This document shows, piece after piece, positions 38,761 to 63,090 of a stretch of DNA of 64,000 bases (within the stretch, counting starts at the first letter, position 1; each line of letters begins with the position of its first letter). The position numbers and the translations under genes are program-made. The notes below the pieces were generated by a model. The model was not told the DNA's origin, made no database searches, and saw only the letters and a list, made by a program, of their open reading frames with translations. Source of the stretch: Crassostrea angulata (taxonomy: Eukaryota); contig NC_069115.1 of assembly GCF_025612915.1 (NCBI RefSeq), forward strand, positions 25,663,757 to 25,727,756, given 5' to 3'.

Positions 38761-39061
38761 AAAGTTTAAGTCCAATCTAGGTACAAGAAAGTTATAACTT
38801 TTATGTGCCTAAATCTTAGGTACATAAAAGTTACACTTTAGTTACAGAAAAGTTATGACTAAGTGTAACTTTTTTTTGTATGGGTTAAGTATTTCCATTT
38901 ACTGCAAAGGGAGGGGTTATTGTCATTTTGTTGGTTTTTCTTTAAATCAATTAAATTAAAAAAAATATCATCAGATACATACATTTGTTAATGTATTACT
39001 GTTATAGATATGTATTTACAGTGAAATTCTGACAATTTTCATTTTAATTTTTCTTTCTTAA

Positions 39062-39865
39062 AGCTATACACGCTATAATTTACGTCAATTTTGAATGACA
39101 GTGAAAACGCATGTGTTTGTCTACTTATAAAAGTTATCCTTAATCTGTAAATTACAAGGGTGAATTCCATCTCGTTACAAAGATATAGATTTTTAATTGT
39201 TTATTTTCCTGCCATGAAAATATACCTTTTCATGAATATTGATGAAGGAAGAGAAAACCGACCTCATTGCGCATGTCCGTGGAGAACTAGGTGGTCGTTA
39301 TTGTTTGCCTAATTAAATATCCAACTTGAATTTTAATATGCTTAACAATTGTTAATTTGAAATACATACAAGTATAATGAGTAAAATACGTTTGTCATTC
39401 ACGATACCCTTACTTCTGTGTTAACACTTATAGGATCTATAAATAGCACATAGGGGAAAAACACAGGTCTACGTCATTTTTTTAAAGGAGGTAATCAAAT
39501 CTACTCACAGGCTTGTATTTTTTTCTTTTGTTTGTACTCGTATATCGGACAAATTTATGCTTTACTGAAAATATCCTTTCCTTTGCGAAACTATCACTAT
39601 TATGAAGATGTTGACCCTTCACCAGTTTTGGTATGATAGGCTAAATTTAGCTGTCGATATCACGTGATATAGATTGATATTCACGAGGAGGCATTACTTT
39701 CCTGGCAGGAAAATAAATATTTTTTATTGTTTAATATTTGATATATTTGTTATGTGATCGAATTTAGCATTATAATTAACAGAATAAAGGTAACTTTTAT
39801 TTGTAATCAAACACATACATTTTCCCCTTTAATCAAAATTGACGCAAATTATAGCGTGTATAGCT
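39062..39865. mobile_element. piggyBac-type MITE (804 bp) with 33-bp TIRs and TTAA target-site duplication
   Basis: TIR AGCTATACACGCTATAATTT(A/G)CGTCAATTTTGA at both ends. TTAA at 39058-61 and 39866-69. The paralogous copy at 28750-28760 has a single uninterrupted TTAA (ctttgTTAActattt). Confidence 0.65.
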
Positions 39866-41124
39866 TTAACAAATTATTTTTTTTTTTACAATTCTAGAAT
39901 TAACTTTTTTTGTATGTGTTCCAAACCTTTATTATTCAATTCAATTATTTGTCCCATTTGAAATTAGCCTTGCGGGGGTATTAGTCCCATTAGGACAGTT
40001 CTAGTTTAATCATATATAATCATTTTTTGGAAAAATGTTATTAAATATTCTTCTAATGTGTCATATATGAGGCAAAATTTGTCAAAATAAATTGCAAAAT
40101 TTTACATTGCAGAGATAAATTCGGGTTATATTTCAAGTTTTATGGACTCAAAGTGAAATTAATTGATTTTATTTCACAGATTAGCATCTAAGAAAAGAAA
40201 TTTTCTTTAAAAAAATATATGTTGACGGTTTACTTTTACAAGTATACCCCCCAAATTTTTTTTCTCAAAAAATCATGAAATATCACTTCTTTCAATGTAC
40301 ATGAAATCTGAGTTTATTTAAAATATTTACAAGTTTTTCACAATTAATTTAAGTTTAAAAATAGATAAAATGAAATAAAACTTAGTAATTTCTCAATTAA
40401 CAATATTTTAATAACTTTTCAGGGTATGTTATGTTAGCGATTGTGCAACACATATAATACAATATAAATTACATGTTGTACATAATAAAATACAATGTGC
40501 CTTAATAATTCATCATGCAAATGGAACATGGTAAATACCTCAAGAAAATTAAATGAATATTTTCTCATTACCATATGCATTTTATACCAACAGGTCAAAC
40601 CAAATTAGTGCATGTTTAGTAACAAAAATTTAGTACATGATCTTAATTCAATACCACTTACAAAGAACTGCCTTCATACAAGCTGCAGAAAAGCTTTTGA
40701 TTCAATCATAATATCTAGAAGCGATAAATAATTGCACAGTTCACTGTAAAAATTTTACATTCTTGTATTTGATTGACACCTTGACAAAAACGTGTAAAAC
40801 AAAATTTCTAATGAGCTTCAGTGTACAAAAAGCCTAAAAGCATTTCAGATGTTTAAAAGATATTGCACAACTTTCTCAATAACTGCTTTTGATTTTGACA
40901 CCTTGCATCTTCTGGAATTAGCAATTGGGTCACTGAAAACATTTCTTATGCCATTGTTGGGGTCATGCTTGTGAATAATTTTAAGCTTGGCTAAATTCAA
41001 GGAAAGTCCCACTAGCTTACTCATAGTTGCTGCAGAAATAACCTTCATCTTAACAAGAGGCTCTAACAATGACTTGCAGCTGTAATAAGACGGTCTAACA
41101 AGATTTTCACCATTACAGTTAACT

Positions 41125-41606
41125 TTAAGTTTTTCGTCTTTGGAGAACTTCTACGTCTGAAACTGCATTGTGCGCATTGTATGTTTCTCCCAGAAGTTTC
41201 TGGACAAGGTTTTCTTGCCTGTAATTACCCATTTCTGCTTTTGGATAAATCCTTTTGGACAACTTGAGAGTATCAACAAATCCAAAAACAATTTCTTGAA
41301 ATCTCTCAAGTAGGTTGTGCTTGGAAAGATTATGCATAAGCACAGGGATATCAAAACTTATGATATTATGTCCAATCAAAACTGCTTTTGGAAAACTCGA
41401 AACAAATGCAATAAACTGTTCAAGTCCTTCGAAAATTGTTAACGAATCAACAGCTTCTCCCTTCAGCTTTAGAACTCCTCCATAATATGTTAATCCTGTG
41501 GCAGCTGAGGCACCAATACTGATAGTACAGGTTGGTCTTGTATAGACGCTAAGCTCTCTCTCCCCACACACACAAGCGATTTGGAGGATGTCTGATGTGC
41601 AATAAC
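41125..41606 (-). CDS. Exonuclease-like gene, 3' exon with DEDDh (DnaQ-like) 3'-5' exonuclease motifs Exo II and Exo III
   Basis: Track ORF 41125..41631 contains LIGHNIISFDIPVLMHNL (Exo II, HN..FD) and YNAHNAVSDVEVL (Exo III, H-x-A-x-x-D). The 5' boundary and the phase of the exon2-exon3 junction are not resolved; the obvious AG at 41607/8 gives the wrong phase. Confidence 0.55.
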
Positions 41607-41700
41607 CTGCAATATAATGTAAAAAGTACACTTATCCTTCCAAATAATTTGTAATCAAATATCAATTACGCATACATAACAAAGGTTACTACAAACTAAC

Positions 41701-41830
41701 CTAATCCTGTAGTTTCTAGGTAAAAAAACTATCAAGGAACTGCTGTCTACGGAGAACTCTTTTGACGGAATGGTGATGTCCTCTTTGTCAGTACATTCAT
41801 CAAATCCAATATTGGTGCTGTAGGTTTCAC
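41701..41830 (-). CDS. Exonuclease-like gene, exon 2 (GETYSTNIGFDECTDKEDITIPSKEFSVDSSSLIVFLPRNYRI)
   Basis: Acceptor ttttttttag|GTG and donor ATTAG|gttagt. Frame is continuous with exon 1. Corresponds to part of track ORF 41655..41936. Confidence 0.4.
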
Positions 41831-41949
41831 CTAAAAAAAATTTGGAACAACTTTTATACATTGCAATCATGATATGATATGCTCTAGCTTTACAAAAATT
41901 GCCATTATATACAGTGTGAAATAAGTACATGTACATGTATTTTATTTAC

Positions 41950-42091
41950 CCTCAAGCACTGAGTGAGTAGCATCTTTTGATAACCTTTCACTCTTCAGTT
42001 TGGCACTGCGTTGGGCTTGAAGTAACCGCTTCCTTTTTAATGAATTTGCCAGTTTTGGGGTGTATTTTACCGTAAATCTGCCGGGAGACAT
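41950..42091 (-). CDS. Exonuclease-like gene, exon 1 (MSPGRFTVKYTPKLANSLKRKRLLQAQRSAKLKSERLSKDATHSVLE)
   Basis: ATG at 42091 on the minus strand. Open frame ends at donor GAGG|gtaaat. Phase-1 exit matches exon 2. Too short for the ORF track. Confidence 0.4.
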
Positions 42092-42566
42092 CTGACACCT
42101 CTTGTTAAGCTAATTAAAAGACAGAAAAACACTTATTTATTAATTACTTCAACTACATAGAATTTAACACGTAATTCAAATTCATTAAGGATAACTATTC
42201 ATTACATGTTAAAATGTCATGAACATGTATTATTTCTAGCAATATACATGTATTAAACATAAAAATCAAAAATTCATTTAAAATTACATGGAATGCTGGA
42301 TTAAAAAAAAGGCTCTCTGAAATTATTTGATATGTTAGTAATAATTTAATAACAATTATTATGATTTCAAATATATGAACAACTGAAAAATAAAGTGAAA
42401 AATTATGCAATATGACCAGTTTGCAAATATACATTTTCATGGAACAAAATACATTCATAAATATTATAAGCATATTAAATATTTTGGGTAGCACTAGGTA
42501 ACAAGATATATAAAAACATATAAGTGTGTATGTGTGCAGGCAGATTCATACATGTATTACAATCTG

Positions 42567-45500
42567 CACTGGATGAAATATCTGGTTTCAGCGCTGCGGA
42601 AACCCTTTGGAAACTCTGCGGAAACTTAAGGTTACCCTAAGTTTCCGACGGGTTTCAGCACGGAAACTTCAAGTTTCATTAAGTTTCCGCAGTGCTGAAA
42701 CTTAGGCTGTCCATGAATCCAAATGGTTTCCGCAACGGAAACTTACTGAAACTTGAAGTTTCTGCATAGTTTCAATCTCCATATACGTTTGGGATACATA
42801 TTGTTTACAAATGGTTTCCGCGACGGAAACTTACTGAAACTTGAAGTTTTTGCATAGTTTCAACCTCCATATACAATTGGGAAACATTTTGTTTACAAAG
42901 GGTTTCCGCAACTGAAACTTACTGAAACTTTTTATATTTTTGCTTTCACAAAAGCTGAGCAAGGTTTCTACTTTATGTAAAAACAAAACAATTTCAAACA
43001 GTTCCAAATTTATTTTGTTCAAAAATCTGAAATTGTTTCTAATAATAAATAAAATACAGCCAAGATACAATAATGGAGAAACATCCATATGGCAATTCCC
43101 TTATTAGGGACTTTTATTTAAAAAATGATAAAATTGCACAAGAAAAAAAACTCCCATAGAAATCTTTACATTTGTATTTTTTTCATCTCAATTAAATGCC
43201 TATCAAATCTCCCTTTAAAAATGCAACAAAGATCTTACTTTTTTAAAAATATGAATGCAATTTACAAAATAACTGCACGTACATGAATAAACAAAGAAAA
43301 CTTCACTGTTACATGAACATGATACACTTGTCTCAATTTGTTTTGAACTACAATGAATATGTACACCATAAAATATTTTTGAAAAGTCTAAAGTATCCAT
43401 CTTTTAAAAAAACAAAAAAAAACACTACAAGATAGTAGTTGACTATAGAGGTATGACCCAGATTTGATTTGAATATGTCAATAAATTCCAAAATGAGGTA
43501 AAAGTGACCCACTTACAAGTTGGGATAAACCTTTTCTTTGTGAGTAATATAATCTAATGTTTTACAATAGAACAGGATTTGATATCATTTTTTTGATAAT
43601 CCATTAAGTCCAAAGTGAACTTTTCATTTCCACCCATGATGTACCAACTGATCAGATTTTAATATCATAAGCCTGTCAGTATTTAATAGATGACCCAGAG
43701 GGAGATATGAAAAGCTTATTGGCCAATAAAAAGCTAACAATGGAGCAGTCTGTCAAATCATGTGCAAAAATATGATGTACACATTTAATTAATTATGCTG
43801 ATTGCAACACACTTCATTCCTGATGAATATTCTTCTTTACACATGGTTTACCTTCCTACATTTCACTACTTTACCTACATTAATATTTTTAATTCCAAGA
43901 CATGAAGTAAAATATACATTGTTTATATATGACAAGTATTACTACATGTACATGTACTTGCTTTTTGTAGCATGAATGTATAAAATACAAAGTATCACAC
44001 AGATCATTCACCTTACAATTCTCATCAATACCAGCATTTTACTTATGATATAAAAGCTAATTCCAATTATATATTAGTTACATAACACAGATTAAAATAA
44101 AACCCACATGGAAACAACTTTCCATCCAAGTAATTTTGTAATATAAAAATTGTAATACATGGGGTATATGTTGTCTTTATATATTTTCATATACGACATA
44201 ATTGAATATTGTTTGGTGTATTTTATCATTTCTATGACCCATGCATTCATCTCCTAATGCAGTGTTTTTACATTTAAGATTGGTTTCTTAATTTTTCATA
44301 TATTGCTGCAAATAAAAACTAAGTTAAAACAAAGAAAATGGAAAAAAAAGTAGTTAACACTTATCAACTTGGAGATGTGAGGATATATGTTACATGGAGT
44401 CTAATATTTTATGCAATATTTGCAAATATAACAAATTATTTAAGAAAATGAAAGTTAATATCTGCAAGGTCTAATCAATCATTTAATAAGTCAAAACCAT
44501 GTGATTTTCTAAGATTCTAGCTTACAGACAGACATTGTAATATACTGGTATTTGATCATATAAAAAAAGTACTTTTATAGTTTATAGGTTTTTTGAAATG
44601 AGAATACTTTACAGTTAAAAAGTCTTGTTCTGCAGAGGTTTAGTCGGGTCGTAGAGATGTGTCCATTCGAATCAATAAGGAGTGTCCTTGGCTGTTGTTG
44701 ATGTAACCCGAGTCGTAGTTTATGGAAATAGGCCTTTTTGGGGGACTTTCGAGCATTGTCCCGACCGGTGAAGCACTCATATGATCTCATCATGGCTACA
44801 GCAGACTTAGTAGTTCTAGACAATGGTAGCATTAAAATTCTTCTTCTTGCGATGAACTTGTTCCTTTCACTGGGCTGTACTTTATGATGTCTGTTCTATT
44901 TATCTTAAACAAGAATAATAAAGTTTCATTTAGATTTTTAAACAATAAACATAAGTCATTCAGCCTAACATGTAATAAAAGCATTCTGAATAAAATTCTG
45001 AATACAGAAGCTACTATGCAGTTGCCAGTTGCTGTTTAAACTATGTCATATAATGACTACAGTAGTATCTGGTCTAAAATGTTTCACTTTATGTTTGAAG
45101 CTATGTTATTTTCATTTTGATTCAATTATTGTTTGTTGAACAATGGAAAAAATAATCAACAATAAGTGTGTTTCACCCCCCCCCCCCCAATCAACCTCCT
45201 TTTCCAGAACTAAGACCTGGATTTCCCAAAAATTACTACAGTAAATTATAAACATCCAACACATGTATAAGTTAATGGTGAAAATAATCAATTTCAAAGC
45301 AATACCATGCGTTCACATCGTCCAGCTGGTCAAAACATTCACCCGAATCACCGAAGTCGGAACAGAGGATGCAACTAATCACAGGAAACATTTAATTTGT
45401 ATGCTGTCAATGCTGAAAAAGAAAAACGTGAAAGATTTCATTTTCCGGATTTATTTAATAAATTTTTTTCGTTACATTTAGAGTTTGTAAATTGTATAAT

Positions 45501-46869
45501 GTGCGAAAGATTCTTTGTTCGTCTTGTTTACCAACCAAGCATTCATATATTAGGGACGTTTATATAATTATATATGTGTATACCCTGGATAATCTTGATT
45601 ATCATGCATATAAAGTTGGTTAATGGTTAACTTGGTCAAAACGTATATTTAAAAGAAATACGGTAATAAAAATTAAAACGCCGAACCAAGTTTGAAAAAA
45701 TGACGCCATCTTGATTTGATGGCTCGAGATCTCGTTTACAAATGAGGGATAAATTAGAGCCTTGAAAATGTTATTGGGAGTATCTAGATTGTGAATTAAG
45801 TTACCTTGACATGAGTTCTTCATTCCTGCATTATCTCCTTGTTGTAGAGGCTATTAATGCTTCTCAATTCTCCATTTTACAACAGCACCTTCTTGTCCAT
45901 TTTAACCTTCGCTCGGAATCATAAAGTGCGCCAATACTGACCAATCAGAACCTGCTAAATCTTGGAAAAGTGCATCTTGGGATAGTTTAAAATGAATAAT
46001 GTTTAATCAAAATTATCATTTTTTACCAAATAGTTAACTTTTTACATGTATAATTATTTTAAATAAGAACTGTCGGAGTCAGTATTTCCTGGTTAAATAC
46101 GACAAAGTATTGGCGTGTGTTTGTTACAATTGTATTTGTAACACGTGATTAACCAAACAAAAAATGGCCGACTGTTTGTTTACAAATGTCTAATGAAATT
46201 AAACAAGTTTTAATGAGACATATGTATCAGATTTTGTCTTTAACTATATTTTATTTACATGTACTGATGATTTTGCCAAACTAAATATGATAGAGCCATA
46301 TATAGTTTACTGACAAGTTGGTCTTGACTTGTCCAATTTTCACCGCGATTCTAAGCTCGGTCATATTCTTATTCAAAATATAGAGGTGTGAAAATATTAT
46401 GTTCATCACAGAGCAGGTTCTGCATGAACACACAGAAATCACAAATATAATTAAATGCCGATCAATTAACGGGGTCCGGTTAACAGCGTTCACCCATACG
46501 GTGAATTTACAACTACGATGAATTGATGGCAATTATTTTACAGTTACACATATGCACTGATTGGTCATGCGATGAACAGTCGTACGTTAAGAATACTTAT
46601 GAAATTAAAATACAAACGCGTTAAACAAGCCGGGAAGTAAGACGTACATGTCGGACTGATATATAAACAAAATATAATTTTAATTATTTGGTATACTTTC
46701 TACATCAAATGTATACGAATGTATAATCAAATTTTAAAAATGGTGCAAAGTTAGACTTAACCAATAGGCATATAGCCCCCCCCCCCCCCCCCACTTTTTC
46801 TCGCCGGAAATGTAATTGTTCCTAAATTTACCTTGAAAGATTGAGAAGTTGGAGTAATAGGCATACTAG

Positions 46870-46902
<33 letters not shown>

Positions 46903-48411
46903 ACACGGATTAGGAATTTCATGATTTTGCGAAAAAAAAATTGGGTAGGGAAATTTATTTTCGGAAGTATATAGTATAGGTATACCCCCCCCCCCCCCCC
47001 ACCACGGATTAGGATTTTCATGATTTTGGGAATTAGGGTTTTTTAGGGTTTTTCCTCAATATTTCTGAGGATAAGTCTAGCCCCCCTTTCAATTTGCTTC
47101 CGACGCCAGTGAATCATGATACAGTCATACATGCAGTAAAGTCTGAAATGCATGTAAATAATTAAACAATTATTATATTAGACTCAAACTCCAAGTGGGT
47201 TTTACTTGTTATTATCAACTGTAGAATTTAAAAAAAAAAATTCCTGTGTACATGTGTTGGCGTGGTATTAAAAAAGAAATGAATTAGCTCTAAACTTCAG
47301 GTTGTACGAATATTTGGTACGATTTGTAAAAATTTACAACGACTTTACCTTAATTTGTTTGCTTAATTAGTTACTGTACCTCAAGGTTCATTCAAATGAT
47401 AACTAAATGATTTAAGAAGGAGTCTTACAAAATAGGTATATTAATTTATTTTACTAAATAATTATAATTTACTTATCAGTTTTCTAACTCAGGTACACAC
47501 AAATTGAAAAAAAATTCCCACCGGGCTCCAGTTATAAACTCACGCTTCGTACTGTGTATATGTTATGTAACAGTCTTTTGTTCACTCCTGACAGAAAAAA
47601 CCCTGCAATCCACACAGAATATACAGGAAAATCACAGGGGAGGTCACCTGGACAAAGAATGTATACACATGTATACACGTGCCCGAGTACCTAAGATTAA
47701 TGATTTCATCATATGCATTAAACAAGATCAGACATCAGTTTTTCTTTTCAAATTCAATTAATTACTTAGTAAGGTTCTTAATCGCCTTATTTGCCACATT
47801 TGAAGATAGTTACACGTATACATATAGTTTCAGTCACGCTGAAACCTTACTATACATTTTAGTATGTACGGATTCATTATCATTAGGCTAGAATTAAACT
47901 TGATTAAACCTGTTGAAAATAAATGATATTACTATTAAACTCAAATTAAATTTAGTAATAGTTTCAGCAATGCGTAAACCATTTGGAATCTTAACTTAAA
48001 GTTTCAGCATACTGAAACCTAGCGAAAATGTTCTGAAACTGATTGATATTTCCATAATAATTTACACAACTTTTCACATGATTCAAATTTAGTTTCCGCA
48101 TTGCGGAAACCATCAGGAATCTTAACTTAAAGTTTCAGCATACTGAAACCTAGCGGAAATGTTCTGAAACTGATTGATATTTCCATAATAATTTACACAA
48201 CTATTCACACGATTCAAATTTAGTTTCCGCATTGCGGAAACCATCAGGAATCTTAGACTAAAGTTTCTGCTGACTGAAACCTAACGGATACTTGCTGAAT
48301 CGATATAATGGTTTCCGCATTGCGGAAACTATACATGAAACTTCAACTTCAAGTTTCAGCAAGGTTTCCATATAGTTTCAGTTTTGCTGAAACTTGATTT
48401 TTCATCCAGTG
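42567..48411. mobile_element. CACTA/EnSpm-like (Chapaev-like) non-autonomous DNA transposon, about 5.8 kb, with 3-bp TSD CTG
   Basis: Termini 5'-CACTGGATGAAA..GTTTCAGC and ..GCTGAAAC..TTTCATCCAGTG-3' are inverted. Identical CTG lies immediately outside both ends (42564-66 and 48412-14). Subterminal tandem repeats of about 105 bp (42590-42960) and about 130 bp (47870-48390) carry GTTTCCGCAACGGAAAC-type palindromes. No long transposase ORF inside. Confidence 0.6.
46875..46911. repeat. Poly-C tract of 36 nt, the longest of many C/G homopolymers
   Basis: Other long runs include G25 at 18577, C26 at 22079, G18 at 25468, G17 at 26394, C18 at 29755, C17 at 31511, C16 at 37808, C16 at 45175, C22 at 46777, C19 at 46985 and a G-rich run at 51851-51888. 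Confidence 0.9.
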
Positions 48412-48877
48412 CTGGCAATCAAATATTTATGAAATCAAAATTAACAACAATAAAACAAACAACTGGTAATTCTAAATAAAAAAGTTATTAAAACAATCTG
48501 TCAATCTAAACTGCATCTGCAATTAACAGTTCTACCACAGTGATATATTTGTAACCCTCATTCTTTTGGCATACAGAGGCTGAAACTCTTGATTTTAGAC
48601 TCTCAGATCTGCCATAAAACCTTTCATCATAATTGTGTGTGTCTCAAATACATGTACTTAAAACATGTAGTATGAAATATTATTTACTAGAATACTTGCA
48701 CTTGTGATTCTTTTTCAGTAAACTTACATTCTTTTTGGTGCTTTGCTTGCTACCATATGGTTGAAATTTTCGTTACTTTGCGTGGATCCTAAAGTGGCCA
48801 ATTCCTCGACTCTTCCAACATATACTTTAAAAGGTCTTCCAGGGCAACACGTAATGGCTGATCTGTCAGAGGCTTAC

Positions 48878-48953
48878 CATATGGCAAATTCCTTGGCTTG
48901 TACGTAGCCTGATTTTTCACTCCTGCACCATGCCCCACATTTGTTATGTTCAC
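48878..48953 (-). CDS. Transposase-derived gene, candidate further exon (..EHNKCGAWCRSEKSGYVQAKEFAIW or alternative frame)
   Basis: Acceptor atttgatttcag|GTG and donor CATATG|gtaagc. Two open frames, so the reading frame is unresolved. Continuation downstream not found. Confidence 0.3.
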
Positions 48954-49057
48954 CTGAAATCAAATTTGATAAATTGCAGTCAATATCTAAACAAGATGAA
49001 CTTTAATACATGTACTAAAAATGTATTTAATTATATTTAATGTTTCAAAACTTAGCA

Positions 49058-49062
<5 letters not shown>

Positions 49063-49112
<50 letters not shown>
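49063..49112. repeat. (CT)18(AT)7 compound microsatellite inside an intron of the transposase-derived gene
   Basis: Direct reading. Confidence 0.9.
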
Positions 49113-49113
<1 letters not shown>

Positions 49114-49119
49114 CCATAC

Positions 49120-49378
49120 AGATGAGGAACAATCTTTTGCAGATCTTCTTTAAGCTGTGTTGATTTTGTTTGACACAATACATAAAGCATCTCTCCACAT
49201 GACCCCGAACTTTAACATTTTTCAATGCTTTGAAGGTGTTACTCATATCAACTAGCTTGCCTGTGAAACCTTTGCGAGTATGATTACTATAATTGCACTT
49301 CTTTCTGATGTTAGGATCCACAGTGGCTTTGACCCTCGCAATCGTGGTAGAATCATTGTCCATGACCAAAGTGTTGAC
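49120..49378 (-). CDS. Transposase-derived gene exon (VNTLVMDNDSTTIARVKATVDPNIRKKCNYSNHTRKGFTGKLVDMSNTFKALKNVKVRGHVERCFMYCVKQNQHSLKKICKRLFLI..), likely second catalytic Asp region
   Basis: Track ORF 49097..49414. Acceptor gaattgaag|GTC (phase 0) after a 95-nt intron. VMDNDSTT resembles the hAT-like second motif (v-t-D-N-a-S-n). Followed by a C...H-T motif. The 3' donor is ATCT|gtatgg or ATG|gtatat, just before a (CT)n(TA)n microsatellite. Confidence 0.55.
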
Positions 49379-49472
49379 CTTCAATTCATCATTTAAAAAA
49401 AAAAATAAAACCATATTTTACATTATCATATACACATCAAAAAGTGATACTGTTTCTTCATTTCAGAAATAC

Positions 49473-49726
49473 CTGCTTTCCTGTATTCATTATGTCTTGA
49501 AGCATTTCACAGGCCATAGCTGGCTCCATGGACTTTGCAGAGCTGCATGAGCATGCATGTTTTCTTGGGGGGACTCCCTTCTTCCTAGCATTTGTACAAA
49601 TCCTACAGCGTTTTCTCATCACGGAAAACCCTAGACCCTTTTTTGTGGACTCTCCAATCAAAGTTGCATGTCCTATAATAATATTAACCAAAACTGTCTT
49701 ATGCAAGAGGAAACCTCTTTGGTTCA
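49473..49726 (-). CDS. Transposase-derived gene exon (..NQRGFLLHKTVLVNIIIGHATLIGESTKKGLGFSVMRKRCRICTNARKKGVPPRKHACSCSSAKSMEPAMACEMLQDIMNTGKQ)
   Basis: Track ORF 49458..49727. Acceptor gataatgcag|TG and donor AAGCAG|gtattt (phase 0). Cys/His-rich KxCxxC...HxC segment. Confidence 0.55.
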
Positions 49727-49845
49727 CTGCATTATCAAATATATTAAACTTTGGATGTAAAAAACATCCAATACTAGGTAACCCTTTATAAAATCAAATT
49801 TTCATTTATCACCGGGACAATAACTAAATCAAAATTTGTACTCAA

Positions 49846-49905
49846 CCTGTCAAACTGTTGTAAGCACGGCCTGTACCTCTTTTTTGCCACGCTCCGTCGA
49901 AACTT
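49846..49905 (-). CDS. Transposase-derived gene exon (SFDGAWQKRGTGRAYNSLT), likely first catalytic Asp region
   Basis: Acceptor tttaacag|CAAG and donor GACAG|gttgagt. This frame exits in phase 1 and joins the next exon to give ...SLTVNQRG... FDGAWQKRG resembles the D-x-W first motif of hAT-like transposases. Confidence 0.5.
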
Positions 49906-50058
49906 GCTGTTAAATTTCCATCACTTCTAATAAAGTAACAAATGCATATTTTCTGGTTATATATTAAATATTTGGTTTCTGTGGTAGCATATAGAGGGAA
50001 AAATTAAATAACAACAGTCAGTGATTTTCTTTAAAAGTTAACTCAATAATATACGTAC

Positions 50059-50230
50059 AATCTAACTTCTTCCTCAAAACTTTTCCTGCAGGTCTCCTCT
50101 GCCATGTCTGCTAGATGAGGTACAATTTCTCTTTCTCTGCACTTAATGCTCTTGGGTGGTATTGTTGGAATATTCATAGCAGACAATAAACTATTCACAT
50201 GCATCTCTCCAAGACCAGCATCTATCATGC
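50059..50230 (-). CDS. Transposase-derived gene exon (GMIDAGLGEMHVNSLLSAMNIPTIPPKSIKCREREIVPHLADMAEETCRKSFEEEV..)
   Basis: Track ORF 50043..50240. Acceptor ttgtag|GCATG. The 3' donor is ambiguous (GAA|gttaga, TT|gtacgt or A|gttttg), so the end is +/-25 nt. Confidence 0.45.
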
Positions 50231-50362
50231 CTACAATCATTATAACATTTTCTTGTGAAAATCAAATACAATTTTCTTTTGTTTACTAATGTATCCCTAA
50301 GATTTATTTATTTGTTATCAAAATTAATTAAGTCTCATTCCAAGTTTGAAAGTTATCCTTAC

Positions 50363-50429
50363 CTGCTGCCAACTTTGTGTTAACATCCCAAGCAATACCA
50401 CCAGCGATAGTTTTATCCCGGCTGCCAGT
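50363..50429 (-). CDS. Transposase-derived gene exon (TGSRDKTIAGGIAWDVNTKLAAG)
   Basis: Donor GGCAGCAG|gtaagg is strong. Phase-1 exit joins acceptor gattgtag|GC of the next exon to give ...AAG-MIDAGLGEM... The acceptor (aaccag|ACT) is weak. Confidence 0.45.
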
Positions 50430-51231
50430 CTGGTTGTTTCACTCGGTTAAATCGTTTATTATAAATAAATAATAAGTATTTATTTTGAAAATTTGATTTG
50501 AATAAATACTATGGATTTAATATTTGATTAAATGACTTTATTTCATGTAAATCGGTGAGAAAACAATTAATACAAACCGAAAGTACCGACATCGTTCCTC
50601 GGCGTCCTTTTTCTTCCCTCAGTTTTCGCTGTTTTCTTTGAAATTCCCTCTGCAAATCACTTCTTCCAGGGTTTATATGTAATTAGAAACATTTCCCAGA
50701 GTCGCTGACATGTTTTTGATGTTTCAAAATTGATCGGCGATGCTGTATTTACGGGTTTTTCGCCACATGGATTACCATTGTTTTCAAACAGCTTATCACT
50801 GCACCACGTGACCCTCTATCTAATAAACGGCAATTGGGAATATTAGTGGCTTGGAAAAGGGTCAATAAAAAGCTTAATAGCGCAGCGTGGGGGCAATGAA
50901 AATACCGAATTTTCATTTAGGTTATTATTCTATCTAAACTGCGCCAAATACCGCTAAATATAGCAACACGAGATCAGTCCTTTAACAAGTTGACAATAGT
51001 TACATCTCATCAGCAACATATGTCCTAATCCAAATTTTTTCTCACCAGTGCAATGGGCTGACTGCATAGCTGGCAAGACTTTAATCCGTCTGCCAAGATT
51101 CCTAAGTTAATTTTTAACAACACATTAGATATAATATTCCATAGCATATAAACTAAAATTACGGTGTATGGTCCACACAAATGTTGTCTGTTTTGGTTTG
51201 TTGTTATTACCTAGTTCTACAACTCTTCGTC

Positions 51232-51462
51232 CTATATAGCTACACGCCATTCCCCCTCTTTCAAGTTTTCATCAAGAGAAATTTCAATTTGCTGACTTGG
51301 ATCGGGGATGTCACATGCATACTCATGATCGTAGCTAATAATTGGTACAACGTTAGCAGCTGAGGCGGTTTCTTGTCTCCATCGTGATTCCCTTCCACTT
51401 TCCAAAGCCTTATTTATTTTTTCCCTTCCCTTTTTACAAAATTTCCCCTTAAACTTCGCCAT
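51232..51462 (-). CDS. Putative first coding exon (MAKFKGKFCKKGREKINKALESGRESRWRQETASAANVVPIISYDHEYACDIPDPSQQIEISLDENLKEGEWR...) of the minus-strand transposase-derived gene
   Basis: ATG directly downstream of a GC/CpG-rich promoter-like segment. Track ORF 51232..51462. The donor used is not identified, so linkage to downstream exons is inferred from strand and proximity only. Confidence 0.3.
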   Translation of the reverse strand: MAKFKGKFCKKGREKINKALESGRESRWRQETASAANVVPIISYDHEYACDIPDPSQQIEISLDENLKEGEWRVAI

Positions 51463-51700
51463 TTGTTGTTACAATAGCTAACTACCGGATATAAGAAACG
51501 CTGAGTAAAAGTCGAACCAAAACCGTAAAAAATTCACATCTCGGAAAACAAAAGTGTGGTTTATCGCGGCTCTAATTTTACATGTCGGTGTGACGTAGCG
51601 CGATACTCGGACTACTTTAAGAAAAAAATTACAGCGGAAAATCATCTTGAATTGTAGCCATTTGTTAATGTTGATTTTGAATAAAGATGAAAATAAAGGG
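51463..51700 (-). promoter_or_regulatory. GC/CpG-rich promoter-like region for the minus-strand gene
   Basis: Local rise in GC and CpG (cgcgctacgtcacaccgacatg, gccgcgataaacc) and a TGACGT CRE-like site immediately upstream of the ATG at 51462. Contrasts with the AT-rich surroundings. Confidence 0.3.
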
Positions 51701-52420
51701 TGGGCCTTAGTAAAATAGAGCGATATGCCTGTCTATACATTGCAGTCTGAGGCTCATTGAGAGGGGTAGGGGGCTAGACTTGATCAGAAATCTTATGAGC
51801 AAAAAAAAAGATTTTGAGTACGGCTATGTCTACCTTTGCAAAAAAAAAAGTTGGGGGTGGGGGGTGGTGGTGGGGGGGGGGGGGGGGGGCTGGACCCGTC
51901 CACCCAGTTCAGACGCCTTTGCATTGATTATACATGTAATAGCTCTATGCATTTTCAACTTTTTGGGGCCAACTCCTTATACGATAAATCTACACCAACT
52001 TTGTTGGTTTTTCAGACACAATTAAATAATTGAGAAGCAAAAAACAAAAAGGTTTTGAGCATGGCTATGTCTAACTTTGCCCCAAAAAAGTGGGGAGGGG
52101 AAACCCCCCCCTTCTACTCAGTTCCGACGCCTATGCATTGATTATACATGTACTTGTAATAGTTCTTCAACATATCACATGATAACATTTTTCATTCCAG
52201 TGTATTCATCGATCAAGTGAGTAAGGTTATAAAACGTCGCACGAGTTCACGCCTGGTAAACAACAATCGTTTATAATGCGGAAGACCAATAAAATTTTTG
52301 AATGTTCTTAATTTGAGCGTCTTGAGGTACAATTTTCTTCTTTCACATGTAGGAATTTTAAAAATAAAATACAATTACTAGCTATTACAATGTAGTTGAA
52401 GATGAGTATGTACATATATA

Positions 52421-55168: not shown

Positions 55169-57534
55169 TTATGGGAGGGCGAATATAAATTGCAGAAATA
55201 AAAGTTTGATCTGTATTCAAAGCGGAGAAAACCTTGAAACTGTAGAAAAAGGGGGGTGCATTTTTAAAAATCTTCTTCTCAAGAACTACCGAGGCAAATT
55301 CAACCTAGTTTAGCATAAATTATCCTTATGGGAAGGAAAATATAAATTGCAAAAATTAAGTGGTAATTCTGTTTCAAATCTGAGTTATTACGAAAATAAT
55401 AATAAAGGAAAGGCGTGTTTCAATCAGTTTAATAGCTTCGGGTTCGGCATACGGTAAAATGATTCCATACTTCTAAAACGAGGTTCTTTGTTTAAAGCAG
55501 CCATGACATTATACGAAAAAGGTCTTTCTGACTATGATGAATTTGCTTGTTGTGCAACAGTTTGCGTATGAAGGGAAATTTTGAAACATACAAAATATAT
55601 TGGTGCCGATTTTGTGAAGTAAATTGAGGCTAAATATTTCAATGCGTTGATAGTTTTCACACATGACGATGGTGTTAGCTTGTTCTGATTTTCGTTTCGT
55701 TCTCATTATGCTTTGTAACCTGGGAACTATCGTCTGTATTTCGTGATTTTTACGTATCAAATCAAACAGAGACTTCGGTAAATCAAACAGTTAACTGTTT
55801 ACCTGCGCAAATTAAGCAAAATCGGATGTAGGGGTACTGAAATACAATTCATTCTATCGGTAATTCGGCATAATCTTTTGCGTAATGGTACATGTAGATT
55901 AATGCAATAGGTTTTGTTGAGATGCTCGGCATTTTCTCGAGTTTATTCAGTTTAAATAGAGTTTGATATCGCTGACGGAAATATGTAGGTATATACATGT
56001 ATATATATGATTCATTTCGAAAAAATAAATTGTGTTCTTTATTTGTTATACATGTAGTGCATGTTTCTTGTGTTTAATTGTTTACAATTTCTATTTACTA
56101 ACCATATTTGAGTGTTAAGCTTCGAATTATAAGCAAGATACAGAGATTTGCTCACAATTCTATGTTTGTACACAGATCTTAAAAACTAAAGCTTAAAAAA
56201 TTAAAAAATTTGTCAATATTTATTAAGAAAATTTACAAAGCCTGTTCTTCCAGAAACCAACTTTAACAACTTATTGTATTGTAACCTTAACCTTTTTAGC
56301 TCACCTGAGGGTGGGGCCACAATGGGGGGTCGAAGTTTAACAAATGAATATATAGAGTAAATCTTTAAAAATCTTCTCCTCAGAAACTAATCAGCCAGGA
56401 AAGCTGAAACTTGTGTGAAAGCATCATCAGGTAATGTAGATAAAAATTTGTGAAAATCATGATCTCCGGAGGTAGGGTGGGGCCACAATGAAGGATCGAA
56501 GTTTTACATAGGAATATATAGAATAAATCTTTAAAAATCTTCTTCTCAGAAACTAATCGGCCAGGAAAGCTGACACCTGTGTGGAAGTATCCTCAGGTAG
56601 TGTAGATTCAAAGTTGTGAAAATCATGACCCCCGGGGTACGGTGGGGCCACAATGGGGGATCGAAGTTTAATATAGGAATATATAGAGTAAATCTTTAAA
56701 AATCTTCTTCTCAGAAACTAATCTGCCGGCAATGCTGAATCTTCTTCGGAAGCATCCTCAGGTAGTGTTGATTCACAGTTGTGAAAATAATAACCCCTGG
56801 GGGTAGAATGGGGCCACAATGGGGGGTCGAAGTTTAACATATGATTATATAGAGTAAATCTTTAAAAATCTTCTTCTCAGAAACTAATTAGCCAGGAAAG
56901 CTGAAACTTGTGTGGAAGCATCCTCAGGTAGTGTAGATTCAAATTTGTGAAAATCATAACCCTGGGGGTAGGTTAGGGCCACAATGGGAGGTCGATGTTT
57001 TACATAGGAATAAACAGTGTAAATCTTTTAAAATCTTCTTCTCAGAAACTAATCAGCCAGGAAAGCTGAAACTTGTGTGAAAGCATCCTCAGGTAGTGTA
57101 GATTCATAGTTGTGAAAATCATGATCCCCAGGGGTAGGGTGGGGCCACAATGGGGGGGTCAAAGTTTAACAAAGGAATATATAGGGTAAATCTTTAAAAA
57201 TCTTCTCAGAAACTAATCAGCCAGATGTTTCTTTATAATTGTTAAGAATTTGGCCCCAGGACAATTCTTTGGCCTCCCGAGAAGGTTCAGAGTTTGATGT
57301 ACGTTTATATCTAATATATAAACTATTGTTAAGGATCATTTTGAGAACTGCAATACTCAACATATGATATGACTATAAAATCATCTTGTTAGAAAAGGGA
57401 CTAATGATTATAAACATAAGAATATCCAGGGGAAAATGGATTTTATTTATACAGGATCTACATGTATTATTGTACATTGTCCAGATAGTTTGTATTATGA
57501 CTCCATTAAGCTGATTTTATCATACCTATTATTC

Positions 57535-58799: not shown

Positions 58800-61493
58800 G
58801 TGAGTAAATAATAATATAAATCAATTTTATGTATATTTGGTTAATACTCCAACTTTCAACAGATAGTGGTAGTTTATTTACACACCTTTACATTGATTTG
58901 ATGACTAATAAGTAGTCAAATCAATGTGAAGTTTGTAAATTCACCATTAAACAAGCAGTGCACTGTAACTTCAACCTGTAATGGCTTTTATTATACCCTA
59001 CGCAACAAAGTCTGTCAGTCAGTTGGTCAGTTCTGTTTTTTTGTAAGTGCAACTCCTCTTAAACCACTCAAGTAATGTAATTTAGTGAAACTTTGTTGGC
59101 ATTTAGGACACAATGTGCAGGTGTGCATATACCAGGAAAATTCAGATTCCATTATTTTTCTTAAAGTTTTGGTCCTTATAGCCGTTATCTGACAAATCTT
59201 TGATTCTTACATAGAATTAATCTTAAAGGGACTTGGACACGATTTGACATAAAATTTTCAAATTTTATTTTTCCATTTTTAATGTTTATACTAATGAATA
59301 TAGAGGTTTATAATGCTTTGTCAAAATTTGAAAGTCAAATATCAAATTATAAGCAAGATACAGAGTTCATAATTCTTTGTTTTGTAAACAAAGCTCAGTA
59401 TTGTCATTTTTTACATGTGTGTTGTATTGGTGTGAGTTTCAATCAAATGTATCTTTCTTTTGTTGATAATAGTATTTATGAAGATATTGAATTAGTTTAA
59501 ATTGTTTTTGGCCTGTCATTTTGTCTAAGAAATTGTAATTTTCTACATTACATTTTTTGTAAACAACTATAAGACTCGAGCTTTGTTTACATAACAATCA
59601 ATTCTTAGCTCTGTAACTTGCTTGTAACTTGACTGTAACATTCAATATTTTGGTCAATCATTTAAAATGCACCAGTTAACTGTTTTATACATAAAAAATA
59701 AAAATAAAATTTTTGATCTTTAATCGTGTCCAAGTTCCTTTAAGCATTTCTAAGTATTCATCTAATGAAATGTTATTTTTCTTGCCACCTTGTACATTGA
59801 CAAATCTGTTTGCAATGAGTCGATTTCTCTGAAGTTCTGGAAGAATACCTGATATGATTAAGGGCTGTTAAATGAATAGACCTTATCATAAACGATATCA
59901 GTAGTAAATTGCCTGACGAATACAATGATACTGTCTAAATGTTTATATAGCATTTGCATATAAAAAAGGTTAATAAGTCAAAAACTAGCACATGTTTTTG
60001 TGTGCAATTAATACACAATTATTTCAATGGGTGGCAATGTAGCTCCCAGGTTGTTAATCCGAAAATTTTTCTTACAGGGAGCTACAGACCAGCAGCTAGT
60101 TTGTATCTCTTAACGTAGCTCGCGGGTTTGCTGACGTCACAGTAGGAATCGACGTAAAGAGTTGACCGTCATAGTAAACTCATAGGCTACATTTCTTTTT
60201 AAAAAAAATGACAAATGTCTGATCGAGATATTTAGAAGTATAAAAGGAAATATTTCAAAAAGCTTAAATGCAGTTTATTACTGTTTATACAAACATTTAT
60301 TATTATCTGAAAATTTAAAGATGTCACATACATTGTCATATTTTGTTCTATAAAGTATGAGTGTGCGTTGAAATTCTTCCATTTAAAATCATGCATGTTT
60401 TAAAATAGACAAGTAAATCAATTGAACCGTAGGCATTAACTTCGCTATTTTTTTATTTTTTTTTTACAATTATAACTTCCGTAATTTTAACTACCGATCA
60501 AATTTTTGAAATTCTTTTGGCTTGAGCTAATTATTTTATACGATTACAAACTTTTATGTCAGTAGTTGCCCGGCAATTTTTTCATAAAAGCAAAAATAGC
60601 AATTTTTTGTATCTTTGCAGCCTTACATTAATTGCATTTGGGTATTTGATAACATTCACAATAATGTATAATTAATATTTACATGTTCTAAAATGTGTTA
60701 ATCAGCTAGTCTTGTCAATAAATGCATTTCAATTTTTGGGTTCTCAGACGTAAGGAGATAATGACGTCGGGCTAACGTCGTAATGAAAATATAAGGTTTG
60801 GAGTAATCTTTTAAATCTTTAAAGTTGTTTTGCCAAAAATTGGCCGAGAACACATACTGATTATTTTTTATGAATTGATTCAAAATTATCTCCTCTGTTA
60901 TTGTGTTAAGTATAATTAATTTCGTCTGAATCCTTTAAAAGTTTGGAGCATAATTTTGAAATGCGTTTCTCGACTAAGATGTGCATTTTACTATATATTT
61001 CATTGAAATGGCGTCGCTTGATTTTATTAATGACACGGTATTTAAAACACGGTAACATGATTACCGCGTAGACGAATCTCAAATAAATTTTAGAAATAAA
61101 ACTCTGAAACCTATGGATCACGTGGACAGATTTTCAAGGTAGGTTTTCTCACAAGCATGTAAACCCGCGAGCTACCTTAAGGTGGCCCCTCCATGAGTTT
61201 AAACTTACTCTTAGGATAAAGGAGGAGTTTTTACATAATAATCACATTTGCAGACAAAGCAGGAAGTTTAAAAAATGTAATTATAAGCAATAAATCATTT
61301 GAAAAAAAAGATATACAACTCCCATAAATAACTTCAAGGATATATGCAAACAAATTTTCATAATGTTCTAACACATGTTACTTAATTTGTGTGCACACCA
61401 CTGCAGTTACAGGACTATATCTTTCAAAAAAAAGGATTCAATCTCTGAATATATTAATATTTATGTTATTGTTGGTCATATTGTTATTTTCAG

Positions 61494-61721
61494 GATTCCC
61501 CGTTCCCACTTTATCCAGGAGAAACACTCCCAGATGCTCCTCGATTTTTGAAAAATGAGCCTGATCTAACAAATGCCATTAAACCCTTACCTGTTATTAA
61601 AGCCAATTATGCCATCAGATTGATTGCAAATATTGACTTTGAAGATGCCCAGGGTCAGCATATGGCAGGAGAGAAGTGGCAGCTGGAAGGACCCCTCACA
61701 TACAAACCTCAGCCTGAAGCA
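61494..61721 (+). CDS. MVP: MVP exon encoding [76 protein letters not shown]
   Basis: Acceptor ttattttcag|GAT and donor GAAGCA|gtatgt. Strong match to human [14 protein letters not shown]...[38 protein letters not shown]. Same frame as track ORF 61548..61889, which runs on into the intron. Confidence 0.9.
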
Positions 61722-61849
61722 GTATGTATCATGTATAAAAAAACTTCTTCTATTAGTTCACTGTCTGATTGGAGTAGAACACTATTTTTATGCCCCCCTT
61801 CGGAGAAGGGAGGGCATATTTCTTTGCTGCTGACCGGTCGGTCGGTCGG

Positions 61850-63043: not shown

Positions 63044-63090
<47 letters not shown>

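What the first reader, a model, noticed from the sequence alone, without database searches (positions are those of the whole stretch)
48878..51700. Nested antisense multi-exon gene encoding a DDE/RNase-H-like transposase-derived protein with its own CpG-rich promoter
At least five or six GT/AG-bounded exons on the minus strand are phase-consistent across most junctions. They encode ..DKTIAGGIAWD.. / ..MIDAGLGEMHVNSLLSAMNIPTIPPKSIKCRE.. / SFDGAWQKRGTGRAYNSLT / ..KRCRICTNARKKG..KHACSCSSAKSMEPAMA.. / VMDNDSTTIARV..KKCNYSNHT... The D-G-A-W, KxCxxC...HxC and (V)MDNDS(TT) motifs resemble the first and second catalytic-Asp regions of hAT-like cut-and-paste transposases. The exact superfamily cannot be fixed from memory. 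The gene lacks recognisable TIRs, has introns including one with a microsatellite, and sits below a GC-rich promoter-like island (about 51463-51700). All this suggests a host-integrated (domesticated) or intron-bearing transposase gene, lying inside the large MVP intron. The exon 50059-50230 / 49846-49905 junction phase is not cleanly resolved.
Basis: partly seen in the sequence, partly recalled or inferred. Interest (0 to 1): 0.75.

Follow-up and report, generated by a model that had tools for sequence, protein, structure and literature searches.

The report
Decayed Kolobok transposon in MVP intron
The multi-exon "transposase gene" is real, but it is a broken, roughly 11.6-kb copy of an intron-bearing Kolobok-type DNA transposon lying antisense in an intron of an oyster's major vault protein gene, not a gene the host has adopted.

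Summary
The minus strand carries GT/AG-bounded exons encoding a DDE transposase (Pfam PF20700, E 6e-65), antisense inside an MVP intron.

The interpretation does not hold.
- The protein is not hAT-like. Its DDE core is 62% identical to Repbase Kolobok-9_CGi. It carries the Kolobok zinc-finger and DxxH signatures and continues into a DEDDh exonuclease plus PML_C module, the "KolobokD" architecture.
- The unit is four times larger than reported: 11 exons, element span 51616-40010.
- A paralogous copy at an unlinked Magallana gigas locus (L011) shares homology that starts and stops exactly at TTAA on both sides, the Kolobok target-site duplication. The element starts 5'-AG. No inverted terminal repeat was found.
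- The window copy is dead. It has seven frameshifts, two in-frame indels hitting conserved motifs (DxxH and the NW motif after the CCHC finger), a 532-bp insertion in exon 2 and a 5.8-kb CACTA-type insertion in intron 8.
- The spliced RNA contig (L001) that confirms the junctions comes from the paralog, not from this copy.
- The "GC-rich island" is 35% GC. It is only CpG-enriched (o/e 1.79), and most of it is the element's own 5' end.

Verdict: an ordinary transposon relic. Side observations: conserved skipping of an 85-nt exon, and close similarity of the exonuclease to fish Plex9.

The parts
40010..51616 (-). Whole Kolobok-type element copy (about 11.6 kb; about 5.2 kb without the two nested insertions)
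   Evidence: Homology with the paralogous copy L011 (M. gigas OY970746.1) begins at TTAA|AGTAGTCCGAG and ends at ..TATATGA|TTAA. Flanks are unrelated beyond the TTAA in both loci.
51617..51620 (.). TTAA flanking the 5' end (target-site duplication)
   Evidence: both copies read TTAA immediately before AGTAGTCC...
40006..40009 (.). TTAA flanking the 3' end (target-site duplication)
   Evidence: both copies read ..TATATGA then TTAA, after which the sequences diverge.
51463..51616 (-). Element 5' terminal region / 5' UTR, CpG-enriched, contains an ACGTCAC motif.
Evidence: About 97% identical to L011 over aligned blocks. No transcription start was mapped.
51211..51462 (-). Exon 1 (ATG at 51462). 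It carries a 3-nt deletion at about 51320 and an 8-nt insertion (TAGCTATA) at about 51243 that shifts the frame and creates a stop.
50363..51101 (-). Exon 2 (N-terminal CxxC..CxxC zinc finger). It carries a 13-nt deletion at about 51055 (frameshift), the 532-bp insertion, and an in-frame TGA just 3' of it.
   Evidence: Intron 1 (51210-51102, 109 nt) is also present in L011 and is used by NCBI model P0099.
50450..50981 (-). Nested 532-bp insertion at a TTAA inside exon 2 (5'-AGGACTGATC..). Absent from the paralog.
   Evidence: It shares its 5' end and an internal 34-nt motif with a 1168-bp TTAA insertion specific to L011.
50059..50230 (-). Exon 3
   Evidence: L001 alignment and GT/AG.
49847..49926 (-). 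Exon 4 (first catalytic Asp, SFDGAWQKRG)
49473..49672 (-). Exon 5 (CCHC zinc finger KRCRIC..KHAC). A 9-nt deletion at about 49544 removes the conserved NWT.
49115..49378 (-). Exon 6 (second Asp, VMDNDS). A +3 indel at about 49295 turns the D of the DxxH signature into NY. A 10-nt deletion at about 49168 shifts the frame.
48728..48953 (-). Exon 7 (second zinc finger and catalytic Glu, GSTQSNENFN). A +4 indel at about 48907 and a -1 indel at about 48835 each shift the frame.
48536..48620 (-). Exon 8: an 85-nt cassette exon (FYGRSESLKSRVSASVCQKNEGYKYIT), skipped in all oyster-clade RNA contigs examined.
42567..48411 (-). Nested 5845-bp CACTA/EnSpm-like insertion in intron 8. TSD is CAG, termini CACTGGATGAAA.., with subterminal tandem repeats. 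Absent from the paralog.
41950..42109 (-). Exon 9 (linker), with a 15-nt in-frame deletion at about 42001.
41701..41830 (-). Exon 10 (start of the DEDDh exonuclease, FDLETTGL). A +1 indel at about 41729 shifts the frame and removes the first catalytic Asp.
40845..41606 (-). Exon 11, coding part (RNase_T exonuclease plus PML_C domain; stop at 40847-40845). An 8-nt deletion at about 41138 shifts the frame.
40010..40844 (-). 3' UTR and element tail. L001 (a contig from the paralog) aligns down to 40423. The 40010-40402 tail is shared with L011.

Best explanation
The locus is a dead copy of a cut-and-paste DNA transposon of the Kolobok superfamily, with the 'KolobokD' gene architecture.

**What intact relatives encode.** One intron-rich gene of 11 exons encodes:
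- an N-terminal zinc finger;
- an RNase-H-fold DDE transposase with a CCHC finger after the first Asp, a DxxH signature and a second zinc finger;
- when the 85-nt exon 8 is included, a C-terminal DEDDh 3'-5' exonuclease with a PML_C domain.

**Inferred history.** The element integrated at a TTAA, antisense, into an intron of the MVP gene of an oyster (Magallana gigas or a very close relative). It has since decayed. It cannot make transposase or exonuclease and is most likely a neutral intronic relic.

**Shown here.** Family assignment of the protein, exon structure, TTAA-bounded homology with a second copy, the list of lesions, and the nested insertions.

**Inferred, not shown.** That the copy arrived by transposition, that it is functionally inert for MVP, and that its 5' end acts as a promoter in intact copies.
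For: **Protein family**
- Pfam PF20700 at E 6e-65.
- The DDE core is 62% identical (E 3e-119) to Kolobok_9_CGi_1p from Data S5 of PMC9587614.
- The layout matches that paper's description of Kolobok: CCHC finger after the first D, DxxH, then a further zinc finger before E.
- The C-terminal exons hit RNase_T (1.3e-8) and PML_C (1e-16). [quoted passage not shown]

**Second copy**
- L011 lies in M. gigas next to a TRAM_LAG1_CLN8 gene, not MVP.
- Its homology to the window starts and stops at TTAA on both sides, and the element begins 5'-AG.
- TTAA occurs at 0.0125 per position in the window. By my estimate, chance coincidence at both ends is about 1e-3.

**Decay**
- Window lesions relative to L011/L001 were listed.
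- Nested insertions of 532 bp and 5845 bp are absent from L011.
- dN/dS against the paralog transcript is 0.53, from 17 synonymous and 33 nonsynonymous changes.

**Family size.** It is multi-copy across bivalves: 94 protein clusters.

**Introns are a family trait.** The same intron positions occur in the Saccostrea cucullata genomic locus L002 at about 54% amino-acid identity and in L011.
Against: - No terminal inverted repeat was found between the two ends, neither in the window nor in L011.
- The 3' end reads ..TGA, not the YY-3' described for Kolobok. Canonical Kolobok ends are therefore only half met.
- Only two copies were compared, and no empty site for this insertion was seen.
- Pfam names the domain 'Mutator-like', not Kolobok.
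- I could not consult Repbase consensus sequences or Fig. 4 of PMC9587614. Whether Kolobok-9_CGi itself is labelled KolobokD is not verified.
- Conserved introns, expression of the paralog and NCBI gene models (LOC117681434, XP_065932409.1) are also compatible with a host gene family.
Confidence: 0.85

Rival explanations
1. One reading: a domesticated, host-integrated transposase-derived gene with its own promoter, nested in the MVP intron.
For: - No TIRs were detectable.
- There are ten canonical GT-AG introns, and intron positions are conserved across species.
- A closely related copy is transcribed and spliced.
- NCBI annotates the paralog as a gene.
Against: - The window copy has seven frameshifts, an in-frame stop, damaged DxxH and NW motifs (the latter follows the CCHC finger), a lost exonuclease Asp and two nested TE insertions.
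- Homology with a copy at an unrelated locus is bounded by TTAA.
- The family has dozens of paralogs per bivalve genome, and a close relative is catalogued in Repbase as Kolobok-9_CGi.
- The RNA evidence (L001) maps at 99-100% to the paralog, not to this locus.
Confidence: 0.04
2. A pseudogene of a host multigene family (transposase-exonuclease fusion genes of bivalves) that spread by segmental or gene duplication rather than by transposition.
For: - There are no TIRs.
- The gene structure is intron-rich and conserved.
- Stand-alone exonuclease homologs are annotated as 'protein PML-like' genes.
Against: - The duplicated block ends precisely at TTAA at both ends in both loci and starts 5'-AG.
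- A close relative is a curated Repbase transposon family.
- TTAA-targeting elements have been active recently in this same window: the insertion at 60120-61175 has an empty site in other individuals.
Confidence: 0.08
3. A hAT-like or Mutator-like (MULE) element, following the reader's guess and the Pfam family name.
For: - The Pfam family is called 'Mutator-like transposase'.
- hAT, P, MuDR and Kolobok all share the C/DxxH signature, as stated in PMC9587614.
Against: - The flanks duplicate only TTAA. They do not duplicate 8 bp (hAT) or 9-11 bp (MULE).
- No hAT dimerisation, BED, SWIM or FLYWCH domain was reported by Pfam.
- The best curated relative is a Kolobok family at 62% identity.
Confidence: 0.03

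Closest known systems
Kolobok-9_CGi (Repbase family of Crassostrea/Magallana gigas), as aligned in Data S5 of Kojima & Bao 2022, Mob DNA 13:24 (PMC9587614)
   Same: - The DDE core is 62% identical.
- The motifs occur in the same order: FDGAWQKRG, CCHC finger, SAKSMEPAMACEMLQ, VMDNDSTT, CDSNH, IVPHLYGEH..CG.WC, LPYGKPL, GSTQ.NE.FN.
- Same host genus.
   Different: - Only 62% identity, so this is a different family or subfamily.
- I could not see the Repbase consensus, its termini or its intron structure.
KolobokD lineage (Kolobok transposons encoding a DEDDh/DnaQ exonuclease; PMC9587614)
   Same: - A Kolobok-type transposase followed by a DEDDh exonuclease similar to Exuperantia and TREX.
- Found in mollusks and arthropods.
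- TTAA flanks and a 5'-RR start.
   Different: - No TIR and no YY-3' end were detected.
- The paper does not describe introns, the exon-8 toggle, the PML_C domain or a fusion protein.
- Whether this family is in their KolobokD clade is not verified.
Vertebrate Plex9 / PML exon-9 (CDE/PXL) exonucleases (PMC10123124; bioRxiv 10.64898/2026.02.19.706916)
   Same: - The exonuclease module matches PDB 9l8b, 9l85, 9mrd and 9mrc at E 2e-38 to 4e-30. 9MRC is zebrafish Plex9.1 according to the preprint.
- The Pfam PML_C domain is present.
   Different: - Those are host genes without a transposase part.
- Here the module is the 3' part of a transposon gene, and in this window it is frameshifted.
Drosophila P element (alternative splicing decides transposase versus truncated product) - an analogy from general knowledge
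   Same: An intron-bearing DNA-transposon gene in which a splicing choice changes the protein made. Exon-8 skipping truncates the ORF.
   Different: - Different superfamily.
- The tissue specificity and function of the isoforms are untested here.

Membership tests
Kolobok superfamily | DDE transposase homologous to Kolobok transposases | tested here: met
   62% identity, E 3e-119, to the Kolobok_9_CGi_1p core. The comparison used paralog protein P0105; the window's spliced exons are 97% identical at nucleotide level to the paralog transcript L001.
Kolobok superfamily | C/DxxH signature, followed by a zinc finger before the catalytic E | tested here: met
   The paralog reads CDSNH..ERCFMYC..HLYGEH..CG.WC..NENFN. 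In the window copy the D is replaced by NY through a +3 indel, so the signature is mutated in this copy.
Kolobok superfamily | TTAA target-site duplication | tested here: met
   Homology between the two copies is bounded by TTAA at both ends in both loci. No empty site was available.
Kolobok superfamily | Termini 5'-RR ... YY-3' | tested here: inconclusive
   The 5' end is AG, which meets the rule. The 3' end is ..TGA, which does not.
Kolobok superfamily | Terminal inverted repeats | tested here: not met
   There is no TTAA-flanked inverted pair. The local alignment of the two ends scored no better than shuffled sequence. The reverse complement of the first 100 nt is not found anywhere in either copy.
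KolobokD lineage | A DEDDh (DnaQ) exonuclease encoded with the transposase | tested here: met
   RNase_T, Exu_RNase_H_like and PML_C hits on exons 9-11. Fusion proteins exist in relatives.
CCHC-finger Kolobok lineages (KolobokP/E/D/5) | CCHC finger just after the first catalytic D | tested here: met
   KRCRIC..x12..KHAC, read from the translation.
hAT superfamily | 8-bp TSD and a hAT C-terminal dimerisation domain | tested here: not met
   Only TTAA is duplicated. Pfam reports only PF20700.
Mutator/MULE superfamily | 9-11-bp TSD and long TIRs | tested here: not met
   The 9 bp on either side differ; only TTAA is shared. No TIRs. Only the Pfam name is 'Mutator-like'.
Domesticated transposase gene | An intact ORF maintained by purifying selection | tested here: not met
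   Seven frameshifts, an in-frame stop and an interrupted exon 2. dN/dS is 0.53 against the paralog.
Domesticated transposase gene | A single-copy, syntenic orthologous locus without transposon ends | tested here: not met
   A second TTAA-bounded copy lies at an unrelated locus. Synteny across species was not testable.
CpG-island promoter | Over 200 bp with GC above 50% and CpG o/e above 0.6 (the usual criteria, from general knowledge) | tested here: not met
   GC is 35.3%. CpG o/e of 1.79 passes only the o/e criterion.

The most novel reading that the evidence does not exclude
The family to which this relic belongs may switch between two products by conserved alternative splicing of an 85-nt, frame-shifting cassette exon (exon 8).
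- Skipping gives a C-terminally truncated transposase and leaves the exonuclease out of frame.
- Inclusion gives a transposase fused to a Plex9/PML-like DEDDh exonuclease.

The same data raise a second possibility: the vertebrate Plex9/PML exon-9 exonuclease and the KolobokD exonuclease share a recent common origin, by domestication in one direction or capture in the other.
Probability: 0.35. Interest if true: 0.5.

Novelty: new member of a known kind. Interest (0 to 1): 0.2.

Why it matters
For this locus, little. It is one more decayed DNA-transposon copy in an oyster intron, and it should be masked rather than annotated as a gene.

It is useful as a caution in three ways:
- Pfam's "Mutator-like" label covers Kolobok transposases.
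- Intron-rich transposon genes can look like host genes.
- RNA evidence from a 97%-identical paralog can be mistaken for expression of a dead copy.

The family-level side observations could interest transposon biologists and people studying the origin of PML, but they are not established here. These are exon-8 skipping, Plex9-like exonuclease modules on a transposon, and TTAA insertion without detectable TIRs.

Tried and rejected
1. **TIR searches.** I tried all TTAA-flanked end pairs, local alignment of the two end regions against shuffles, and the reverse complement of the first 100 nt against both whole copies. Nothing was found.
2. **L001 as proof that the window copy is transcribed.** Rejected. 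L001 is 99-100% identical to the paralog L011 and only about 97% to the window.
3. **The idea that L001 is an allele of the window locus.** I considered this because MVP-locus contigs from other individuals differ from the window by 1-4%. It was rejected once L011 was found.
4. **The 530-bp gap in exon 2 as an intron.** Rejected. It is absent from L011 and sits at a TTAA.
5. **hAT and MULE assignment.** Rejected on the TSD and on the closest curated relative.
6. **CpG island.** Rejected on GC content.
7. **An empty-site test using the flanking repeat X (28590-28898).** Uninformative, because X simply ends where the element begins.
8. **Look-ups that found nothing.** P0003 and P0100 are not on record.
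9. **Literature searches that found nothing.** 'PF20700' and 'Plex9 + transposon + exonuclease' returned no papers. 'Kolobok + PML' returned one unrelated review.
Full report

Yes. The window is AT-rich (32% GC). A hand-joined translation matches Pfam PF20700 'Mutator-like transposase' at E 6.1e-65, covering profile positions 24-357 of 357.

A database search returned 94 related protein clusters, almost all from bivalves (Saccostrea, Ostrea, Magallana, Mytilus, Argopecten, Pecten, Pinctada). A few came from insects and a brachiopod. Many are 700-840 aa fusions of PF20700 with an exonuclease: RNase_T, Exu_RNase_H_like and PML_C.

**2. Exon structure**

An intron-less Logan contig (L001, 2499 nt) aligns to the window in eight blocks. 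Every block boundary resolves to a canonical GT..AG intron. Adding protein-guided mapping and the paralog gives 11 exons and 10 GT-AG introns:

| Exon | Window coordinates (minus strand) |
|---|---|
| 1 | 51462-51211 |
| 2 | 51101-50363 |
| 3 | 50230-50059 |
| 4 | 49926-49847 |
| 5 | 49672-49473 |
| 6 | 49378-49115 |
| 7 | 48953-48728 |
| 8 | 48620-48536 |
| 9 | 42109-41950 |
| 10 | 41830-41701 |
| 11 | 41606-40845 |

- The gene is about four times longer than the reported span.
- Exons 9-11 encode a DEDDh exonuclease (RNase_T, 1.3e-8) and a PML_C domain (1e-16).
- Intron positions are the same in a Saccostrea cucullata genomic locus whose protein is only about 54% identical (L002). The exception is intron 1, which is shared with the M. 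gigas paralog.
- The introns are therefore an old property of the family, not accidents of this locus.

**3. What family is it?**

Pfam's name points to Mutator, but the literature gives a sharper answer. Kojima & Bao 2022 (PMC9587614) describe Kolobok transposases as follows:
- a C/DxxH signature, followed by a zinc finger before the catalytic E;
- in some lineages, a CCHC finger just after the first D;
- a lineage 'KolobokD' that additionally encodes a DEDDh exonuclease and occurs in mollusks, arthropods and cnidarians.

Their alignment (Data S5) contains Kolobok_9_CGi_1p, whose motifs are almost those of this gene. BLASTP of that core against the paralog protein gives 62% identity, E 3e-119. 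The window gene has the same architecture: FDGAW (D), KRCRIC..KHAC (CCHC), VMDNDS (D), DSNH (DxxH; NYSNH in the window), C..C..H..C..WC, NENFN (E), then the exonuclease.

**4. Is it a transposon copy or a host gene?**

The cluster of the closest protein holds Magallana gigas entries: XP_065932409.1, LOC117681434 and A0A8W8JAQ5. The genomic locus of XP_065932409.1 (L011, chromosome OY970746.1 at about 35.17 Mb) lies next to a TRAM_LAG1_CLN8 gene, not MVP. It is therefore a second copy at another locus.

Alignment of L011 to the window shows the following.
- Homology starts at TTAA|AGTAGTCCGAG (window 51620-51617 | 51616).
- Homology ends at ..GATTATATATGA|TTAA (window 40010 | 40009-40006).
- Flanks are unrelated beyond the TTAA at both ends.
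- TTAA occurs at 1.25% of positions. By my estimate, a homology block that begins and ends with it by chance has a probability of about 1e-3.
- TTAA duplication and a 5'-RR start are the Kolobok hallmarks stated in PMC9587614.

No TIR was found by three different searches, and the 3' end is not YY. This remains unexplained. The two copies may descend from a master element with a defective or non-canonical 3' end.

**5. State of the window copy**

Indels are given relative to L011/L001.

| Position | Change | Consequence |
|---|---|---|
| 51320 | -3 nt | in frame |
| 51243 | +8 nt | frameshift and stop |
| 51055 | -13 nt | frameshift |
| 50981-50450 | 532-bp insertion at a TTAA in exon 2 | exon interrupted; an in-frame TGA follows |
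| 49544 | -9 nt | removes the conserved NWT |
| 49295 | +3 nt | turns the DxxH Asp into NY |
| 49168 | -10 nt | frameshift |
| 48907 | +4 nt | frameshift |
| 48835 | -1 nt | frameshift |
| 42001 | -15 nt | in frame |
| 41729 | +1 nt | frameshift; destroys FDLETTGL, which holds the first exonuclease Asp |
| 41138 | -8 nt | frameshift |

- Intron 8 is inflated from about 580 bp to 6426 bp by a 5845-bp element with termini CACTGGATGAAA.., a 3-bp duplication (CAG) and subterminal repeats. It is a CACTA/EnSpm-type insertion.
- dN/dS against the paralog transcript is 0.53, from 17 synonymous and 33 nonsynonymous changes. This is consistent with relaxed constraint on one branch.
- The copy cannot encode a functional protein.

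**6. RNA evidence**

L001 confirmed the splice junctions, but it is 99-100% identical to L011 and about 97% to the window. It shows that the paralog is transcribed and spliced, not this copy. None of the eight members of the 90% cluster carries the window-specific variants.

**7. The 'promoter island' and the MVP context**

- Region 51463-51700 is 35% GC, with 13 CpG and o/e 1.79. It ranks in the 99th percentile for o/e and only the 70th for GC.
- Its CpG-rich part, 51616-51463, is the element's own 5' terminal region and is conserved in L011. It contains an ACGTCAC motif. A promoter role is plausible but untested.
- MVP is confirmed. A Vault-repeat exon at 61497-61730 has PF01505 homologs, and another lies at 31729-31860. 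Both are on the + strand, so the element lies antisense in an intron of about 30 kb.

**8. Comparison with known families, and novelty**

The coding part belongs to the Kolobok transposase family with KolobokD architecture. The element shows the Kolobok TTAA duplication and 5'-RR start but not TIRs or YY-3'. It is a new, decayed member of a known kind. Very probably it belongs to a family already in Repbase, which I could not query. The domestication hypothesis is refuted for this copy.

**9. Side observations**

*(a) Exon-8 skipping.* In all oyster-clade RNA-derived contigs, exon 7 is spliced directly to exon 9. This holds for four lineages: L001, L003-5, L006 and L012-15. Skipping the 85-nt exon 8 shifts the frame and ends the transposase ORF shortly afterwards.
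- Exon 8 is nevertheless highly conserved as a peptide.
- It is included in NCBI fusion models and in RNA-derived fusion proteins of more distant families.
- This suggests a splicing switch between a truncated transposase and a transposase-exonuclease fusion.

*(b) Similarity to Plex9.* The exonuclease module's best solved relatives are PDB 9l8b, 9l85, 9mrd and 9mrc (E 2e-38 to 4e-30).
- 9MRC is zebrafish Plex9.1, the PML-like exon 9 exonuclease.
- NCBI already calls stand-alone oyster homologs 'protein PML-like'.
- Neither the KolobokD paper nor the PML/Plex9 paper mentions the other family.

*(c) A recently active TTAA element.* A 1056-bp TTAA-flanked element with 15-nt TIRs lies at 60120-61175. 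It is absent, leaving an intact single TTAA, from four genomic contigs of other individuals. TTAA-targeting elements have therefore been active recently in this species.

Noticed in passing
window 48536-48620 (exon 8); loci L001, L003-L006, L012-L015: The 85-nt exon 8 is skipped in every RNA-derived contig of four oyster-clade lineages. Skipping shifts the frame, ends the transposase ORF and leaves the exonuclease ORF in another frame. Yet the exon is strongly conserved as a peptide and is included in fusion proteins of more distant families. This may be a splicing switch.
   Followed up: partly
window 40845-42109 (exons 9-11); L001:1028-2080: The transposon's exonuclease module carries Pfam PML_C. 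Its closest solved structures are 9l8b, 9l85, 9mrd and 9mrc (E 2e-38 to 4e-30); 9MRC is zebrafish Plex9.1. A KolobokD-Plex9/PML relationship is not discussed in the papers I could read.
   Followed up: partly
window 42567-48411: A 5845-bp CACTA/EnSpm-like, apparently non-autonomous element: termini CACTGGATGAAA.., 3-bp TSD CAG, about 89-nt imperfect inverted arms, and subterminal tandem repeats (about 88-nt and about 131-nt units). It is nested in intron 8 and absent from the paralog.
   Followed up: yes
window 50450-50981 and L011:14689-15856: Two TTAA-site insertions, 532 bp in the window copy and 1168 bp in the paralog. They share a 5' end (AGGAC..ATC.C.TGTT) and an internal motif (TTAGATAG.GGGTCACGTGGT.CAGTGA) but have no TIRs. 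At the L011 insertion site the window reads TTAA-AATATTG-TTAA, which could be an excision footprint.
   Followed up: partly
window 60120-61175; L007-L010: A polymorphic 1056-bp element with TTAA TSD and 15-nt TIRs (GTAGCTCGCGGGTTT). Four genomic contigs from other samples show the empty site with a single TTAA. Its 5' end (xGTAGC.CGCGGG...GACGTCACA) resembles the 5' end of the Kolobok copy (AGTAGTCCGAG...TACGTCACA).
   Followed up: partly
window 38889-40006, 28590-28898, 62774-62939: A repeat of about 310 bp. The copy next to the element's 3' end is split by an 811-bp MITE-like insertion (39062-39872) with imperfect inverted arms of about 190 nt. The uninterrupted copy is at 28590-28898.
   Followed up: partly
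window 51769-52100 and 46868-47085: A repeat containing a poly-G/poly-C tract. Two tandem units lie just upstream of the element, and an inverted copy lies inside the CACTA insertion.
   Followed up: no
window 56308-57206 and 63011-63870; L002:5809-6608: Tandem arrays with a unit of about 166 bp, 75-80% identical to an array in Saccostrea cucullata. This appears to be an oyster-wide satellite or TE-associated repeat.
   Followed up: no
window 1-424 (+): ORF fragments resembling the C-terminal DDE region of a Tc1/mariner-type transposase (..YSPDLNPAEQCF..). Identified by eye only.
   Followed up: no
window 31729-31860 and 61497-61730 (+): Two MVP (Vault-repeat) exons about 30 kb apart. The exon for the residues between them (human MVP approximately 66-94) was not located.
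   Followed up: no
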